Source of the DNA: Geminicoccaceae bacterium
GTDB lineage: Bacteria > Pseudomonadota > Alphaproteobacteria > Geminicoccales > Geminicoccaceae
Length of the DNA stretch: 24,000 bases
Direction of reading: 5' to 3'
NCBI GenBank assembly: GCA_965204405.1
Contig: CBDBEN010000003.1
Span: forward strand, 487,293-511,292
Shown here one piece after another: positions 9,001-21,000 of this stretch. The position numbers were made by a program. Position 1 is the first letter of the stretch. Each line of letters opens with the position of its first letter.

Positions 9001-12000
9001 TTCTCATCACCCGCTCCAAACATTTCAAAGAGTTAGCAATCTATCTAGAAAAGGGCGTGTTTCCGGGGCAGCAGATGGGGCAGCAATTGAGCTGTTCTTA
9101 GCGAGCTTCCCACGTTCGTGTATCCCTGTTACAGCCCGCAATGGGATTTCGGACGGTGCGCCATGAGACTGCCAACCGTCATCGCCCTGGCCTTCGCCAG
9201 CCTCGCTACCAGCTTCCTATTCGGCCTCATCGCAGTGGGGCGCTACTGCATCTGATCAAGCTCGATCCCAAGAAATTTCGAATGCATCCCGATCGCTGCC
9301 GACACCCCGGATGTCCAATCTCTCGCTGCAATGCCGGCAGGGACGAGGCTCTGGAAGTTTGCCGCCGACGCCCCTCATGCCGGACTTTCCGCGATGATGA
9401 AGCTCAGTTCTTCATCTCCACAGCTCCGCGACGTCATGATCGATCTCCCCAAGCTTCTCAAATAAAGCAATCATCTCCGCATCATGAACCGTCAGCCCGG
9501 CATACGGCAGCCGATCTTCAAGGCGCTGATAGGTGCTTTGACGCATGCCAAGCGGCCTGCCATCTCCAACGATCTGTTCGAACTTCTTTTTTTCAGAATT
9601 CGCCTCTCCGGATTCTTCGCAGCGCCACGCCCGGATGTAAGCAGGCACTCATAGGTATAGCCGGCGCAAGTCATGCCTGACCGAAGACCCTGGTGCTCGG
9701 GATGCTGATAGACGGCCGCAACGCGCTTGCCGCATTCACAGACCCAGAAATGTCGATTGGTGCAGCCGCCTCCTGATATGATTTCCAGGCGTGTCGTCGG
9801 GCAAATCAGAGGATCGCCGTCTTGGTGTCCCGGCTCGCGCCACATCTCATCGGCAAGCGCGCCTAGCCCGGCGTTGAGCATGCGCACGCCTGATGCTTTG
9901 ACCGTCGATCCATCAGGAGCACGAAACAAAGGCGAGACTCAATTCCACGCTGTACGGTGCCGCTTATAGGGTATGCGTGCATCTCGGAAGTCTGGCCGCT
10001 GGGGTTTAGAGTTGCTCCAGCCTCTCGGCCTAGGGCCGCCATGCATGCGTTTTTTACTCCACACTGCTTCACTGCCTGGCCTCCCTAACGACACATGAGC
10101 ACTGCACCTAGTTTGCCATTGCAATGCTGCATTCCGATGCCGTCCCTGTTCTACCAACAATCTGCCAAACTGGAGGCCAAAGTCTCCTCAAGGGCAAGCG
10201 TTACGAGCTTCCGCTTTTCCGCTGTTACCGGGAACAAGCCTATTTTCAGCAGTGTGCCGATTGTGATGAAAAAGTCGAAGCGAATACCTGACGAAGAATT
10301 TTTTTAGAGTGGCATTCTTCAGAACCGGCATCTCGGAAATCAAATTCCAAGAATATGCTGTTATTGGAACTCGTTTCTAAACCCTGAGAGCATATTTGGG
10401 CGGCTCCGACTTTTTCATCAAAATCGGCCAGGTCCGGTAGGAAGGACAGCTCGCTGGTGTGGCTGGTTCTAGTTTCGAGAGCGGCCATTCGAGTGGGATC
10501 GGCAATCACACTCTTGCCTGCGAAAAGTAAGATCGCCGGCGCGAGGGGCTGCTTCGTGATCCGCATTTCTCCCGCTACGGAAAGCAAGCCCGCACTCACA
10601 CTTCGTGCCATTTCCGGCCGCGAGGTTACGTGCTGATATGAAAGTTATGGATCTGCATAGAGATGTCATGTGAAGAGGATTGCAAAGTTCCCACGAGGCC
10701 ATACATCAAGATGATGCGTGTTGAGATGAGAGGTAACAGTAGTGGCGACCTTAATGGCGTTCTTGTTGGTCCCATTGACTCTTCTGTGCCTAGCTGCTGC
10801 GCTCTCGGCATTACGTATTACCAAACTCAATATCTGGGACACGATGTTAAGTGCAGCAAGAGGCCTGTACGCATGGAGCCTTATTGAATTGACGGTGGCT
10901 TTGACATTGGTCGTGGCTATCGGATTTATACGATAATTCATGTCCTTGACAATTTCTTGCTGTCTCAAATGGGTCAAGCCCGGTAGGAAGGACAGTTCGC
11001 TGGCGTGGCTGGCTCTGGTTGCGAGAGCGGCCATTCGAGCGGGATCGGCAATCATACTCTTGCCTGCGAAAAGTAAGATCGCCGGTACGAAGCGCTGCTT
11101 CGTGATCCGCATCTCTGCCGCTACGGAAAGCAAGCCCGCGCTTACACTTCGTGCCGATTTTGTTGATTTAGTCGTTTGTTTTTGAGCAGGCGTCGCTCGA
11201 CGTGAGGCGAAGTCATGGGCTTGGCGCCGGGCTTCCACCCAGTTTTTTTACGTCTTCGCATCCATAATCGCTCAAATCTCCTTTGTTGTTATGCCAAAGC
11301 TGCGGTTGGTTCGAGTTTCGGTCTGAGCTTGGCGAGTTTTCGGAGGTTCTGAGCGGTGGCGGCGAGGAGAAATTCATCGCTGGCACCGCACGGTCCGCGT
11401 AGCCGAAGCCGGCCGAGCTTGAGAATGCGTTTCAAATGGGCGAACAGCATCTCGACCTTCTTGCGATCCTTTCTTGAGGCTTCGCCGGCATCAGTCTCGG
11501 CGATCGCTCGCGCCATGTCTTTTGCACGTTCATGAACGGAGCGAGGGATTTTGCGAGCGGGCGCTTTCGGGCAGCATTCAGCTTTCAACGGGCAGGCCGA
11601 ACAATCCGCATTGCTCGCACGGTACAGCATGGTGGCACCGTCGTTCACCAGCGTTCCTGTGGTGGTCAGCACCTTGTTGTCAGGACAGATGTAAACGTCG
11701 TCCTCCTGATCATAGAAAAAGTCGCTGCGCGAGAAGGTTCCATCCTTGCGCTCGGACTTGTCGATGATCGCGACATGCGGCTCGATCCCTCGCTCTTCCA
11801 CCAACCAGCCAACCATCTCCGCAGCACCGTAAGCGCTGTCGCCGGCAAGACGTTCTGGGTAGAGATCGAAGCGATCGTTCACCCGTTCGATCATGGTGCG
11901 GGCTGCGCCGACCTCGGCCTGGCGGATCGTCCGTGTCGCTTCGACATCGACGATGATGGCGTTGTCGGTGTCGATTAGATAGTTGGTGGCGTAAGCGAAG

Positions 12001-18000: not shown

Positions 18001-21000
18001 GGGCAGCCATCTCCGTTTCGAGGAAGGCCGCCATGTTGGCTTCATTGCCCGTGATACTTTCCCGGCCAATCGCGCGCTGCAGGAAATCGGTGGCTGCCGC
18101 CTGGTCGAGCAGAGGTCGGAGCTTTGTGATTAGTTCGTTGGTCGCCGTCATTCCGCCGCCTCCGAATTCTGTGCAGCGCGTGAAGAGGGAAGCGGAATCG
18201 ACCCGACCGGAGCAGCTGCGCCGAAAAGGCCATTATATAAGCGACTCAGCCCGAGCGCTGCTGCTCCTACCAGCGCTGCGCGCGGGCCAAGAAAACTCCT
18301 CTCGATCCGAACCGGTGCCATGCTGCAAAGCGGCAGCAGCTCGCGAACCCTGGAGACCAGCTCCGCACGCGCACCGATCGATCCGCCAAGCACGACGAGC
18401 TGAGGGTCGATCACTGCCTGTATCGCGAGCACGGCTCGACAAAGAAGCTTAGCTGTTTCGTCGAGGACTTGGCCTGCGGCCTCGTCACCGTTGGTAGCGA
18501 GATCGAAAATCTCCGGCACAGTCCGATCAAGCCCGGCAAGGGCCACGTAGCGATTCATGATGCCGTGAGTCGCGACCTCGCGCTCAAAGGCGCCGACATG
18601 ACGGGAGTTTGGATCGAAAGGATCAGCGCCGAATGGCAGATAGCCGATCTCGCCGGCAGCACCGGATGTGCCGCGCATCAACTCACCCCCCAGCATCAAT
18701 CCGGCTCCAATCCCGGTGCCGAGCGCAAAGAACGCCAGATTGTCGACACCCTGGCCATGACCCTGCCAATGCTCGCCAAAAACTGCGAGATTGACGTCGT
18801 TCTCTACCACCGTCTCGACACCGAGACGATCGCTGAGACGACTCTTGACGTTCATTTGTTCAAGCCCGCCGACATTGGGCGCCATCAGCACCTGACCGGC
18901 ATCATCGTCCGGCACACCCGGCACGCCGAGGACGGCAAGCCGAATATGTTTTTTGGGAATACGGCGTTTCTTGGCCACCACTTGGCTCAGGGCAACGATC
19001 TGCTCGATCAGATCCTCTCCACCCCTGGCTTCGGTCGGTGCGCTCTCCTCGGCGAGAATTCGGCAGGACAGATCGGCAATCGCCACACGAACCTTGGTGC
19101 CGCCGAGATCGATCGCGATGATATGGGCCGCCGATGGCACAATCTCATAGGTCACCGCCGTCCGGCCGACATGACCACCAGTCCGCCCCGTTACCTTAAC
19201 GAAGCCATCCGCCTCCAGCACACGGACAATTTCCGAGATCGTCTGCTTGGACAGCCTCGTCCGCTTGGCGATAGCCGCCCGTGATATCGGTCCGTGATGG
19301 ATAATTGCCGTCATCACCGAACGTAGCGAAAAATGACGTGAGATCCGAACCGAAGCACTCATAGTCGCCTTGCCTTTAATTCGTTCACTATACGAACTAT
19401 CTTTCGGCCTGATTAAGCTGTCAACCGAGAATCTGCAGACCACAACTAATCCAGCGGTCACACGAACTCGAAAGACCCTAGTGGCCTATTTGGATCAAGC
19501 CCGGTAGGAAGGACAGTTCGCTGGCGTGGCTGGTTCTGGTTGCGAGAGCGGCCATTCGAGCGGGATCGGCAATCATACTCTTGCCTGCGAAAAGTAAGAT
19601 CGCCGGCACGAGGGGCTGCTTCGCGATCCGCATTTCTGCCGCTAGCCGAGCTTACTCGTCGCTCACATTCCGTGCCAAGAACAGACGCTGGGGGCCTCGT
19701 GATCCAACGATCGACTTGCTGCTGACATCGATGAGTCCTTCAGTTAGTTTTTGACCATGAAGATCGAGGCCCTGGACCATGTTCAGCTTGCGATGCCGGA
19801 AGGGCGGGAGGATGAAGCTCGTACTTTCTATCGCGATCTGCTTGGCATTCCCGAAATCGCTAAGCCACCAAACCTAGTTGGTCGCGGCGGCGCTTGGTTT
19901 GTACGCGGCGGTTTAAAGATTCACCTTGGTGTCGACAAGAACTTCTCGCCAGCACGGAAAGCGCATCCGGCCTTCATCGTCTCGGGGTTGCAAGAACTGA
20001 TAGTCAGGCTAACTAACGCTGGATTCGAGCCGGCCAAAGATGAACCTTTGGAGGGCTATGATCGCGTCTACGTACACGATCCATTTGGGAATAGAATTGA
20101 GCTAATGGAGCCCGTCGGGAAGCTTTTGGGTTGAGCCTCCAAAGATCTCCATGGTGCCATCAGATTCGGACACTCACGGAACTGGACGTGTCGCCTTCAT
20201 CGAAGCTCGGCGGTCCTGCTCCTCGAACCACTTGGCGAGCGCAGGGTGGTTAGAAGCCCAATCGTCGTGAAATCCAGCGTACTCCACAAGCCCTAGAGCA
20301 CTGGCAAGTGTGATCGTGCAGAAATTCCAGGCCTGCTTGGGCGCTCGTTCGCGCTGAAAGGTCGTCTCGAAGTGATTGATGCAGCGTTCTGCGCGTTGTC
20401 GCTCGACGTCGAGGATAAACGCCGATCTCTCGCTGTCGTCACGGCGGTTCTCACGCGCCCAAGCGACGATCCCATCGAGAAACCCAACCACCATGCTCTC
20501 GAACGCCAGCTCCTGCCATCTTTCGCTTTCGTTGTAGGCAAGGAACGTCGATCGACCGGCAATATGATCGAAGTAAGCGCATATGTTTCGCGCTTCACCG
20601 AGAACGAGATCGTCACAGACAAGGGTCGGCACACGACAGACCGGACTATGTGCGAGGAGCGGATTATCCGGTGTCCGATTTACGACTGCGACATGTTCGA
20701 TCTCGTCCGCGATCCCACATTCGATGGCGGCAACGCGCACCACTCGGGCGTAGGGCGAGTTCTTTGAATAGTAGAGCTTCATGGTCTGATTATAGCCAGT
20801 CCTGCCGCTCCTGTCGCATCGGTTCGCGAGCTGCAGCCTTGTTTCCGGTCCGGGTCATCGATGGAAACAAGCGCCCTATCTTGTAACGCAGAGAATGCGC
20901 AGCAAAGCGGCCTCGCCAGCAAGCGATCTCCTCTTAGTGCCGGCTTTCGGGTAGGTTTCTTGCCAGTAGCCTCGTTCCCGCAGCGTGCCACTTTTGGACG

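What the first reader, a model, noticed from the sequence alone, without database searches (positions are those of the whole stretch)
10972..19689. Six-gene catabolic/transport operon is bracketed by direct repeats: a potential excisable or amplifiable module
Seen in sequence: repeat copy B ends (12753) 16 nt from the stop of the last operon gene (12769). Copy C starts (19492) 130 nt upstream of the first gene (ATG 19362). Both copies are in the same orientation and about 95% identical over about 150 nt.

Established knowledge: direct repeats of this size support RecA-dependent deletion, circularisation and tandem amplification. Repeat-bounded amplicons have been described on rhizobial symbiotic plasmids.

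Inference: the roughly 8.5-kb unit (10972-19491, including the IS) may behave as a mobile or copy-number-variable cassette, and may have arrived as one.
Basis: partly seen in the sequence, partly recalled or inferred. Interest (0 to 1): 0.6.

Follow-up and report, generated by a model that had tools for sequence, protein, structure and literature searches.

The report
Operon flanked by transposon-end relic repeats
A six-gene sugar/amino-compound uptake operon really does sit between two same-direction copies of a ~190-base non-coding repeat, but the repeats look like leftover ends of a jumping gene (IS91 type) rather than the ends of a dedicated cassette. Nothing shows that the segment actually pops out or multiplies.

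Summary
Repeat B (10967-11155 plus 12742-12753, split by an insertion sequence (IS)) and repeat C (19488-19686) are direct repeats, 95.5% identical over 154 nt. They bracket the ROK / M20 / ABC / YhfX-like operon.

They are two of six members of a non-coding family found only in this lineage:
- A, B and C lie within 9.3 kb of each other.
- D, E and F lie on the largest contig.

The repeat shows no coding periodicity, no RNA-structure signal and no Rfam hit.

The operon is compositionally foreign: 62.3% GC against 54% in the flanks, the 99th percentile for this contig. Two congeners and a Rhizobium plasmid carry it in other contexts without flanking repeats. So the operon moved as a block, but the repeats are not its own ends.

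The IS belongs to the IS1182 family. It has four near-identical copies, all at TGCC targets, so it is a later arrival.

In a congener the repeat runs straight into an IS91-family transposase gene. The repeat tails stop in the left arm of the palindrome GTGCC-NN-GGCAC that marks IS91-type left ends in this genome. The repeats are therefore most likely solo IS91-type left ends.

RecA-dependent deletion or duplication between B and C is possible: the core is 138/144 identical with a 72-nt perfect run, and recA is present. It is undemonstrated.

The parts
8944..9015 (+). tRNA-Gly(CCC). It marks the start of a gene-poor stretch rich in repeats and insertion sequences.
   Evidence: Rfam tRNA, 70.1 bits. 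No direct repeat of its 3' end (14 nt or longer) occurs downstream on the contig.
10259..10425 (+). Small non-autonomous transposon (MITE) of about 170 bp that abuts the left edge of repeat A. Its terminal inverted repeats resemble those of the IS1182-family IS.
   Evidence: The left end matches the IS left end at 14 of 19 positions. Five or six copies occur in the genome and more in congeners, flanked by TGCC/GGCC-type sites.
10421..10613 (+). Repeat copy A (core plus type-3a tail).
   Evidence: It is 91% identical to B and 93.8% to C in the core.
10658..10977 (+). Spacer between A and B. It is a 69.5% paralog of C5:575640-575950, which lacks the repeat.
   Evidence: The local alignment ends at GGGTCAA, the left edge of B.
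10967..11155 (+). Repeat copy B, main part (core plus type-3a tail up to CGTGCC).
11156..12737 (-). IS1182-family insertion sequence. The transposase ORF is 11289-12695, the terminal inverted repeats are 19 bp, and TGCC is duplicated at 11152-11155 and 12738-12741.
   Evidence: NCBIfam transpos_IS1182 scores 412.8 bits against a cut-off of 270; Pfam finds DUF772 and DDE domains. There are four copies at 99.9-100% identity, all at TGCC/GGCA sites.
12742..12753 (+). Right remnant of repeat B (AAGAGAAGACAC). It also belongs to the operon's native 3' flank, which is shared with congener G008.
12769..13503 (-). ABC transporter ATPase, the last gene of the operon.
   Evidence: Pfam ABC_tran; start codon mapped; NCBIfam sugar-type ATPases.
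13500..14729 (-). YhfX-like PLP enzyme (alanine-racemase-N fold).
   Evidence: Pfam YhfX-like_C and Ala_racemase_N.
14716..15765 (-). ABC permease.
   Evidence: Pfam BPD_transp_2; NCBIfam sugar permeases.
15787..16857 (-). Periplasmic sugar-type binding protein.
   Evidence: Pfam Peripla_BP_4.
16889..18151 (-). M20 (ArgE/DapE-type) deacylase.
   Evidence: Pfam Peptidase_M20; NCBIfam.
18148..19362 (-). ROK-family regulator with an N-terminal winged helix, the first gene of the operon.
   Evidence: Pfam ROK and MarR_2.
19374..19433 (-). Operon promoter region conserved in G008 and G003. It holds a -35 TTGACA and -10 GATAGT (19424-19396) and the palindrome TTCGTATAGTGAACGAA.
   Evidence: Promoter scan; three-genome comparison. 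Homology to G008 stops at 19433.
19488..19686 (+). Repeat copy C. Its core is B-like and its tail is F-like (type 3b), so it is a recombinant copy.
   Evidence: Five derived sites are shared with B in columns 18-128. The F-type tail module is also shared, with all variable tail sites agreeing with F.
19751..20134 (+). Glyoxalase/VOC-family gene on the right flank. Homology to G008 begins at about 19671, the last bases of repeat C.
   Evidence: Pfam Glyoxalase; alignment.

Best explanation
Repeats B and C are real, non-coding, same-direction members of a small repeat family restricted to this lineage. Each copy is most likely a relic of, or a sequence attached to, the left (terIS-side) end of an IS91-family rolling-circle insertion sequence.

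The ROK / M20 / ABC / YhfX-like operon between them is a compositionally foreign 6.7-kb block. It was joined into this repeat- and IS-rich spot by recombination at such repeat copies. Copy C is visibly a recombinant.

As a by-product, B and C now offer about 150 nt of 96%-identical direct homology. RecA could occasionally use this to delete the 8.5-kb segment as a circle or to duplicate it. That is a latent property, not a dedicated excision system: there is no recombinase, the repeats do not accompany the operon elsewhere, the operon is single-copy, and the IS1182-family element inside B is a later, target-specific insertion.

Shown: the anatomy, the family membership and the comparative contexts. 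Inferred: the IS91 origin of the repeat, integration by recombination at the repeats, and the potential for excision or amplification.
For: Anatomy.

Non-coding nature of the repeat:
- Substitutions against the G003 copy fall 18/16/16 by codon phase.
- The reading frame of copy C is interrupted by stop codons.
- Fold z-scores are -0.75 and -0.97, and the covariation term is -0.36.
- Rfam gives no hit.

Distribution of the repeat:
- Four full and two partial copies occur in this genome.
- One full copy occurs in congener G003.
- It was found in no other of the 106 family genomes searched beyond weak hits.
- Two metagenome pattern scans found nothing.

The operon is foreign and portable:
- GC is 62.3% against 54% in the flanks, the 99.1st percentile of 6.6-kb windows on the contig.
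- It is present in only 3 of 9 genus genomes, each time in a different context.
- The same permease, YhfX-like and ROK genes lie on a Rhizobium plasmid.
- No flanking direct repeats occur at any of those loci.
- G008 flanks show no similarity to the repeat beyond the terminal GTGCCA region.

C is a recombinant: its core shares 5 derived sites with B and its tail matches partial copy F.

Link to IS91:
- In G003 the repeat is contiguous with CGTGCCACGGCACGAAATCGC and the 5' part of an IS91-family transposase gene.
- That 21-nt motif occurs in 107 genomes only there and at the left ends of three identical IS91-family elements (integrase plus Y2 transposase) in this genome, with zero control matches.
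- The repeat model hits the left flanks of those elements in the right place and orientation, weakly: E about 0.0015-0.002 for c1 and c3, 0.02 for c2.
- Two empty-site comparisons place the repeat's left edge within about 4 nt of each other.

Recombination competence: 138/144 core identity, perfect runs of 72 and 39 nt, and an intact recA.

Precedents: 113-bp direct repeats excise the wzy locus in Salmonella (PMC12074656), and an 871-bp repeat mediates deletion on the R. etli symbiotic plasmid (PMC10932983).
Against: - No junction, circle, duplication or solo-repeat allele was observed, and reads could not be examined.
- The IS91 link rests on one short contig of a metagenome-assembled genome (MAG) with 6% contamination, plus weak model hits.
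- Other IS91 subfamilies in this genome show no such left flank.
- No IS91 transposase lies in or near the window.
- Why all solo copies stop at the same point, the palindrome centre, is unexplained.
- G008 has a 74-N scaffold gap 60 nt upstream of the ROK promoter, and its contig ends 205 nt past the ATPase gene. Its flanks are therefore only partly known.
- Five of the six B-C core mismatches lie in the right-hand third of the core, which shortens the stretch of efficient homology.
Confidence: 0.55

Rival explanations
1. The 8.5-kb segment (B tail, IS, operon and C core) is an active excisable or amplifiable cassette that arrived as one unit and varies in copy number in populations.
For: - Direct repeats with a 72-nt perfect run, and recA present.
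- B and C are each other's closest relatives in the core, which fits past exchange between them.
- Short-repeat excision has precedents.
Against: - The operon is single-copy in the finished-looking assembly.
- The IS is a recent separate insertion.
- The repeats are absent from the operon's flanks in G008, G003 and the Rhizobium plasmid.
- No read evidence was obtainable.
Confidence: 0.12
2. The bracketing is incidental. The repeat, or the IS91-type element it derives from, inserted independently at GTGCCA-type sites that natively flank the operon's 3' end and the glyoxalase gene's 5' end. The operon-glyoxalase adjacency arose by unrelated rearrangement.
For: - G008 carries empty GTGCCA/GTTCCA sites at exactly those two flanks, and homology to G000 starts there.
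- Every copy ends in CGTGCCA with a different sequence after it.
- The region is full of mobile DNA.
Against: - It does not explain why sequence to the left of both sites differs from G008.
- It does not explain why B and C share five derived core sites while having different tails.
- Three of the four full copies cluster in 9.3 kb in one orientation.
Confidence: 0.2
3. ISCR-like capture. An IS91-family element once to the right of C failed to terminate at its own terIS (inside C). It read through the operon and stopped at the terIS-type end in B, so B-operon-C-IS91 moved here as one rolling-circle unit. The IS91 body was later lost.
For: - The repeat tails resemble IS91-type left ends, and both point the same way.
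- IS91-family elements mobilise left-flanking DNA by one-ended transposition at per-cent frequencies (PMC13181058).
- The genome holds several IS91-family elements.
Against: - No IS91 body or oriIS is found to the right of C. The G008-homologous glyoxalase flank starts directly at the end of C.
- Loss of the IS body exactly at the palindrome has no known mechanism.
- The evidence for homology with IS91 left ends is weak outside G003.
Confidence: 0.1
4. The repeat is a cis-regulatory or small-RNA element placed upstream of genes. C and D both lie between divergent genes.
For: C and D each sit in a divergent intergenic region.
Against: - No promoter-like or terminator-like site lies inside the copies.
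- There is no fold or covariation signal and no Rfam hit.
- The operon's own conserved promoter lies outside the repeat.
- A and B have no downstream genes.
Confidence: 0.03

Closest known systems
Repeat-bounded amplicons and deletions on the Rhizobium etli symbiotic plasmid (Romero et al. 1991 and 1995, as listed in the references of PMC10932983; that paper also describes an 871-bp, 98%-identical repeat family, F7, mediating deletion)
   Same: Direct repeats flank a gene block on a large secondary replicon. RecA-type recombination between them would give deletion, a circle or a tandem duplication.
   Different: - The repeats here are only about 150 nt of usable homology at 96% identity, against hundreds of bp to kb.
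- No amplification or deletion has been observed here.
- The organism appears to belong to a Geminicoccaceae-labelled genus, not Rhizobium.
Reversible excision of the wzy locus in Salmonella Typhimurium via 113-bp direct repeats (PMC12074656)
   Same: A short non-coding direct-repeat pair flanks a few kb of genes with no dedicated recombinase nearby. Excision as a circle was shown experimentally at that repeat length.
   Different: There the repeats are identical, the segment is 2.6 kb, and deleted alleles and circles were observed. Here the repeats are 96% identical, the segment is 8.5 kb, and nothing has been observed.
IS91-family / ISCR rolling-circle elements and their one-ended transposition (PMC13181058)
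   Same: - The repeat is contiguous with an IS91-family transposase gene in a congener.
- Its tail matches the region around the subterminal palindrome of IS91-type left ends in this genome.
- No target duplication is evident.
- Such elements carry adjacent DNA along with them.
   Different: - The copies in the window have no transposase or oriIS.
- They all stop in the middle of the palindrome.
- Homology to resident IS91 left flanks is weak.
- The resident elements also encode a tyrosine recombinase upstream of the transposase.
Dispersed intergenic mosaic repeats of alphaproteobacteria (RIME/BIME-type), recalled from memory
   Same: A short, non-coding repeat with modular (mosaic) composition, dispersed over several replicons and used as a target by insertion sequences.
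   Different: - It has very low copy number (six copies) and no palindromic hairpin signature.
- It is restricted to two genomes of one genus.
- The genome has separate repeat families of about 80-130 nt, each with many tens of copies, which fit that description better.

Membership tests
Repeat-bounded, RecA-dependent amplicon or excisable segment | Two repeats in direct orientation flank the segment | tested here: met
   B and C lie on the same strand, 8521 nt apart start to start.
Repeat-bounded, RecA-dependent amplicon or excisable segment | Uninterrupted homology well above the minimal processing segment (about 25-30 nt, from memory) and of the order of 100 nt or more | tested here: met
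   138/144 core identity with perfect runs of 72 and 39 nt. The tail is unrelated (18/33).
Repeat-bounded, RecA-dependent amplicon or excisable segment | Host has RecA | tested here: met
   PF00154 scores 486 bits with an open frame at C5:310078-310866.
Repeat-bounded, RecA-dependent amplicon or excisable segment | Observed hybrid junctions, circles, tandem copies or depth variation | not testable with these tools
The assembly holds a single operon copy.
Repeat-bounded, RecA-dependent amplicon or excisable segment | Solo-repeat (deleted) allele, or the same cassette with the same repeats elsewhere, in relatives | tested here: not met
   - The operon in G008, G003 and the Rhizobium plasmid lacks the repeats.
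- No syntenic site exists in the 8 congeners.
- No exact-protein matches were found in other assemblies.
Composite transposon | Two copies of the same IS flank the cargo | tested here: not met
   Only one IS1182-family copy lies at the locus. The nearest other copy is 185 kb away.
Integrase-mediated genomic island at a tRNA gene | An adjacent integrase gene and a direct repeat of the tRNA 3' end at the far border | tested here: not met
   No integrase lies in the window. No repeat of the tRNA-Gly 3' end of 14 nt or more is found.
IS1182-family insertion sequence (the element inside B) | DDE transposase above the family cut-off, terminal inverted repeats and a short target duplication | tested here: met
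   NCBIfam scores 412.8 against a cut-off of 270. The inverted repeats are 19 bp and perfect, and TGCC is duplicated.
IS91-family element (the repeat as its left, terIS-side end) | Physical continuity with a Y2/HUH transposase gene | tested here: inconclusive
   Met in G003. Not met for any of the six copies in this genome.
IS91-family element (the repeat as its left, terIS-side end) | Subterminal palindrome at the left end and no target duplication | tested here: inconclusive
   - Intact elements carry GTGCC-NN-GGCAC.
- Solo copies keep only the left arm.
- No consistent duplication flanks the copies.
- Sequence similarity to the left flanks of resident elements is weak, with E between 0.0015 and 0.02, and is absent for other subfamilies.
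Known structured RNA (Rfam) | Match to a covariance model, or a significant fold or covariation signal | tested here: not met

The most novel reading that the evidence does not exclude
The approximately 190-nt repeat is the terIS-side end of an IS91-family (integrase plus Y2 transposase) element. The array A-spacer-B-operon-C records successive ISCR-like read-through captures, or recombination of rolling-circle intermediates at resident copies. On this reading a catabolic/transport operon in an environmental alphaproteobacterium was delivered, and could be re-mobilised, by rolling-circle transposition between two same-direction terIS-type ends.
Probability: 0.15. Interest if true: 0.55.

Novelty: new member of a known kind. 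Interest (0 to 1): 0.3.

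Why it matters
If B and C do recombine, the strain could switch an uptake and catabolism operon off by deletion, or raise its dosage by tandem duplication, without any dedicated machinery. That would be a cheap form of copy-number plasticity on a secondary replicon.

The more useful result is interpretive. Direct repeats that seem to define a cassette can be relics of transposon ends that merely mark where foreign DNA was stitched in.

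The link to IS91-type ends, if confirmed, would add a non-clinical example of gene capture by rolling-circle insertion sequences. It would also explain the 'swapped module' in the repeat as different IS91 variants joined to the same core.

Tried and rejected
- **Protein-coding origin of the repeat.** Open frames exist in A and B, but C has stop codons and substitutions show no codon periodicity. Pfam finds nothing.
- **Structured RNA.** Fold z-scores are near -1, covariation is negligible and Rfam gives no hit.
- **tRNA-integrated island.** No tRNA-derived att repeat and no integrase were found.
- **A small tyrosine recombinase next to partial copy E as the repeat's recombinase.** Its paralogs are not near other copies.
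- **A weak repeat hit in another genus (G085).** It lies inside a 599-aa coding gene with only trivial similarity, so it is spurious.
- **A diverged repeat in the G008 flanks.** Alignment scores are no better than shuffles.
- **G003 tRNA-Gly locus as a syntenic empty site.** Only the tRNA is shared.
- **Other strains of the species.** Exact-protein look-ups for ROK and glyoxalase found nothing. Two metagenome pattern scans found nothing, and the one genome-collection scan found only G003.
- **The 16-nt swapped module as a simple inversion.** By eye, only about 10 of 16 positions match the reverse complement and there are no flanking inverted repeats, so I dropped the idea.
- **The repeat as a MITE of the IS1182-type IS.** Its ends do not resemble the IS inverted repeats.
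- **Romero et al. 1995 (PMC176691).** The paper is not held in the library.

Full report
**Observation**

The window is G000:C3:487293-511292, on a 0.98-Mb contig of a five-contig, 6.86-Mb genome. The repeat finder reports a single direct-repeat family with three same-strand copies: A 10421-10609, B 10967-11155 and C 19488-19676.

B is cut at 11155/11156 by a 1582-bp insertion sequence (IS). The IS has perfect 19-bp terminal inverted repeats and a TGCC duplication. B resumes at 12742 and fades out about 12753, 16 nt from the ATPase stop codon. C starts about 130 nt upstream of the ROK start codon at 19362.

B and C are 95.5% identical over 154 nt. The core is 138/144 identical, with perfect runs of 72 and 39 nt. 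Beyond that the tails differ (18/33), because C carries a different 16-nt module.

**The genes between the repeats**

All six genes lie on the minus strand:

| Gene | Coordinates |
|---|---|
| ROK regulator | 19362-18148 |
| M20 deacylase | 18151-16889 |
| Sugar-type binding protein | 16857-15787 |
| Permease | 15765-14716 |
| YhfX-like PLP enzyme | 14729-13500 |
| ABC ATPase | 13503-12769 |

These assignments rest. A sigma-70-like promoter (19424-19396) and a palindrome lie within the 70 nt upstream of ROK. That stretch is conserved in two congeners.

**What the repeat is not**

- It is not coding. Copy C has stop codons in the frame that is open in A and B. Substitutions relative to the most distant copy fall 18/16/16 over the three codon phases.
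- It is not a recognisable structured RNA. Fold z-scores are -0.75 and -0.97, the covariation term is -0.36, and Rfam gives no hit.
- It carries no promoter-like or terminator-like site.

**The repeat family**

The genome holds four full copies: A, B and C here, and D at C5:1627780-1627963 between divergent genes. There are also two partial copies. E is the left 73 nt at C5:3519965-3520037. F is the right 67 nt at C5:1112994-1113060.

A sequence-only model built from the copies finds one more full copy in one congener, G003 contig C437 (about 77% identical by BLAST). It finds nothing convincing in the other 7 genus genomes or in about 100 further family genomes. One weak hit lies inside a coding gene and is spurious. 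Pattern scans of metagenome contigs found nothing.

Three of the four full copies lying within 9.3 kb, all in the same direction, is far from random. The bracket is therefore not an accident of abundance. Equally, it is not peculiar to the operon: A and B bracket only a 350-nt spacer.

**The operon is an imported block, but the repeats are not its ends**

Its GC content is 62.3% against 54% on both sides. That is the 99.1st percentile of 6.6-kb windows on the contig.

Only 3 of 9 genus genomes carry it. In G008 (88% identical) it lies beside a block syntenic with the G000 chromosome-like contig. In G003 (75% identical) it lies in yet another context. A Rhizobium plasmid carries the same permease, YhfX-like and ROK arrangement.

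Homology to G008 and G003 covers just the operon and its promoter: window 12748-19433 for G008 and 12766-19400 for G003. None of these loci has flanking direct repeats. G008 sequence beyond the junctions is no more similar to the repeat than shuffled sequence.

Two caveats apply to G008. It has a 74-N gap 60 nt upstream of the promoter, and its contig ends 205 nt past the ATPase gene.

The flanks of the G000 locus are not syntenic in any congener, so no empty or solo-repeat site could be found. Exact-protein look-ups found no other assemblies of this species.

**The IS is a later event**

It is an IS1182-family element: NCBIfam scores 412.8 bits against a cut-off of 270. It has four copies at 99.9-100% identity.

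All four sit at TGCC/GGCA sites. Two of them sit in a TGCCAAGANNNGAC motif that occurs only six times in the genome. One of those six is the still-empty right end of copy C.

The 170-bp element abutting copy A is a small non-autonomous transposon (MITE) with related ends (14 of 19 positions). It uses the same kind of target. The '8.5-kb unit including the IS' therefore did not arrive as one.

**Signs of recombination in the repeats**

In the core, B and C share five derived states against A, D, E and G003 (alignment columns 18-128). From about column 144 onward C instead agrees with the partial copy F, while B keeps the A/D/G003-type tail. Five of the six B-C core mismatches also lie in the last 40 nt of the core.

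C, or B, is thus a recombinant. Either a crossover or gene conversion took place between family members, or a circle carrying one copy was integrated into a resident copy. This is indirect evidence that the copies do interact. It fits the idea that the operon was joined here through them, but it does not prove it.

**Where the repeat comes from**

In G003 the repeat is followed without a gap by CGTGCCACGGCACGAAATCGC and then the 5' part of a gene. That gene's homologs in G000 are IS91-family transposases, with Zn_Tnp_IS91 and Y2_Tnp domains.

The 21-nt motif contains the palindrome GTGCC-NN-GGCAC. Among 107 family genomes it occurs only at that G003 junction and at the left ends of three identical 2.67-kb IS91-family elements in G000. 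Those elements carry an integrase and a Y2 transposase, and the motif lies 30 nt upstream of the integrase start. The reversed control pattern gave no hits.

The left flanks of those three elements give the best repeat-model hits in their loci. The hits are in the expected place and orientation, but they are weak: E about 0.0015-0.002 for two elements and 0.02 for the third. By eye, two of them align with the repeat in three collinear blocks around a 60-nt deletion. Other IS91 subfamilies in the genome show nothing comparable.

All solo copies end in CGTGCCA, the left arm of that palindrome, and then diverge. Two empty-site comparisons put the repeat's left edge within about 4 nt of each other. 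One compares the B left flank with C5:575950. The other compares the G003 left flank with G000 C4:799490.

IS91-family elements have distinct terIS and oriIS ends and a subterminal palindrome at terIS. They make no target duplication, and they mobilise DNA next to terIS by one-ended transposition at per-cent frequencies (PMC13181058).

The most economical reading is that the repeat is the left-end region of an IS91-type element, or sequence habitually attached to it. The '3a' and '3b' tails would then come from different variants. I hold this at moderate confidence. Why the solo copies all stop at the palindrome centre is unexplained, and no IS91 gene lies in the window.

**Mechanism and likelihoods**

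What is shown:
- a direct-repeat pair with about 150 nt of 96% identity around a foreign operon;
- an intact recA;
- precedents for excision at 113-bp repeats (PMC12074656) and for repeat-mediated deletion on rhizobial plasmids (PMC10932983).

What is inferred: rare RecA-dependent crossover between B and C would delete 8.5 kb as a circle carrying the B tail, the IS, the operon and a hybrid repeat. Unequal sister exchange would duplicate the same segment.

No event of either kind is documented.

I rate the descriptive account, with a latent rather than dedicated recombination potential, at about 0.55. The rivals are:

| Rival explanation | Confidence |
|---|---|
| Actively cycling cassette | about 0.12 |
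| Incidental independent insertions | about 0.2 |
| ISCR-like capture | about 0.1 |
| Regulatory or small-RNA role | about 0.03 |

**Novelty and verdict**

The repeat family itself is undescribed. The kinds of things involved are all known: dispersed IS-derived repeats, an operon stitched into a mobile-DNA hotspot, and potential repeat-mediated deletion or amplification. This is a sound observation with an over-reaching interpretation. Interest is modest unless junction reads or the IS91 link are confirmed.

The earlier scan notes on this window agree with what I found and were re-tested here. They covered the three copies with a swapped module, the IS with its TGCC duplication, the 173-bp element and the tRNA hotspot.

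Noticed in passing
window 11156-12737 and G000:C3:312703-314284: Two identical 1582-bp IS1182-family copies lie in the same orientation 185 kb apart on this contig. That is a far better substrate for RecA-mediated deletion or amplification than the 150-nt repeats. The segment between them includes the type III secretion (T3SS) genes at window 296-4504.
   Followed up: partly
window 19672-19686: The right end of repeat C (GTGCCAAGAACAGAC) is one of only six genomic matches to TGCCAAGANNNGAC, and two of the other five are occupied by the IS. A second IS insertion here in the same orientation would turn the operon into a composite-transposon-like unit.
   Followed up: partly
window 10259-10425; also C5:1111794-1111981, C2:623811-623988, C4:679774-679949 and C5:2861711-2861883: This element of about 170 bp is a small non-autonomous transposon (MITE). 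Its terminal inverted repeats match those of the IS1182-family IS at 14 of 19 positions, and it sits at TGCC/GGCC-type sites. Copies also occur in congeners G008, G003 and G001.
   Followed up: partly
window 19374-19395: The palindrome TTCGTATAGTGAACGAA lies between the -10 box and the ROK start codon. It is conserved in G008 and nearly so in G003, and is a likely operator for the ROK regulator.
   Followed up: no
G000:C5:2057782-2060452, about 2963150-2965825 (minus strand) and about 3007840-3010515; degenerate copy at about C4:11600-14100: Three identical 2.67-kb IS91-family elements encode a 339-aa tyrosine recombinase upstream of a 405-aa Y2 transposase. Two of them share an extra 73 nt of identical left flank, as one-ended read-through would produce. 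A second subfamily (53% transposase identity) lies at C3:777012-779012 and C2:522447-524447.
   Followed up: partly
L059:3888-3971 (G003) and G000:C4 about 12040-12170, with many tens of matches on all G000 contigs: Two very abundant short repeat families of about 80 and 130 nt are scattered over all five contigs. They look REP/RIME-like, and one interrupts the degenerate IS91 copy on C4.
   Followed up: no
G000:C5:3518896-3520893 (L005): Partial repeat copy E lies between a gene for a pentapeptide-repeat plus TIR-domain protein and a 195-aa catalytic-domain-only tyrosine recombinase. An mmgR-like small-RNA hit below the Rfam threshold lies at L005:2911-2996.
   Followed up: partly
window 12769-13941: The longest ATPase ORF (390 aa) overlaps the YhfX-like gene by 440 nt. 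The ABC domain begins at residue 168, and the only start codon near it is ATG 13503, giving a normal 244-aa ATPase whose start codon overlaps the upstream gene's stop codon.
   Followed up: yes
L032:12837-12910 (G008 contig C99): A 74-N scaffold gap lies 60 nt upstream of the G008 ROK promoter, next to a segment whose G000 homolog adjoins a distant IS1182-like element. The contig also ends 205 nt past the ATPase gene. The G008 operon may itself be flanked by unassembled repeats or insertion sequences.
   Followed up: no
whole genome: The only outside genome with the repeat is a metagenome-assembled genome (MAG) labelled Geminicoccaceae (JBPCVQ01), which the genome tool places in the same genus. 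The organism is therefore probably not a rhizobium, despite the plasmid-like replicon, the T3SS genes and the 73%-identical operon parts on Aminobacter and Rhizobium plasmids.
   Followed up: partly
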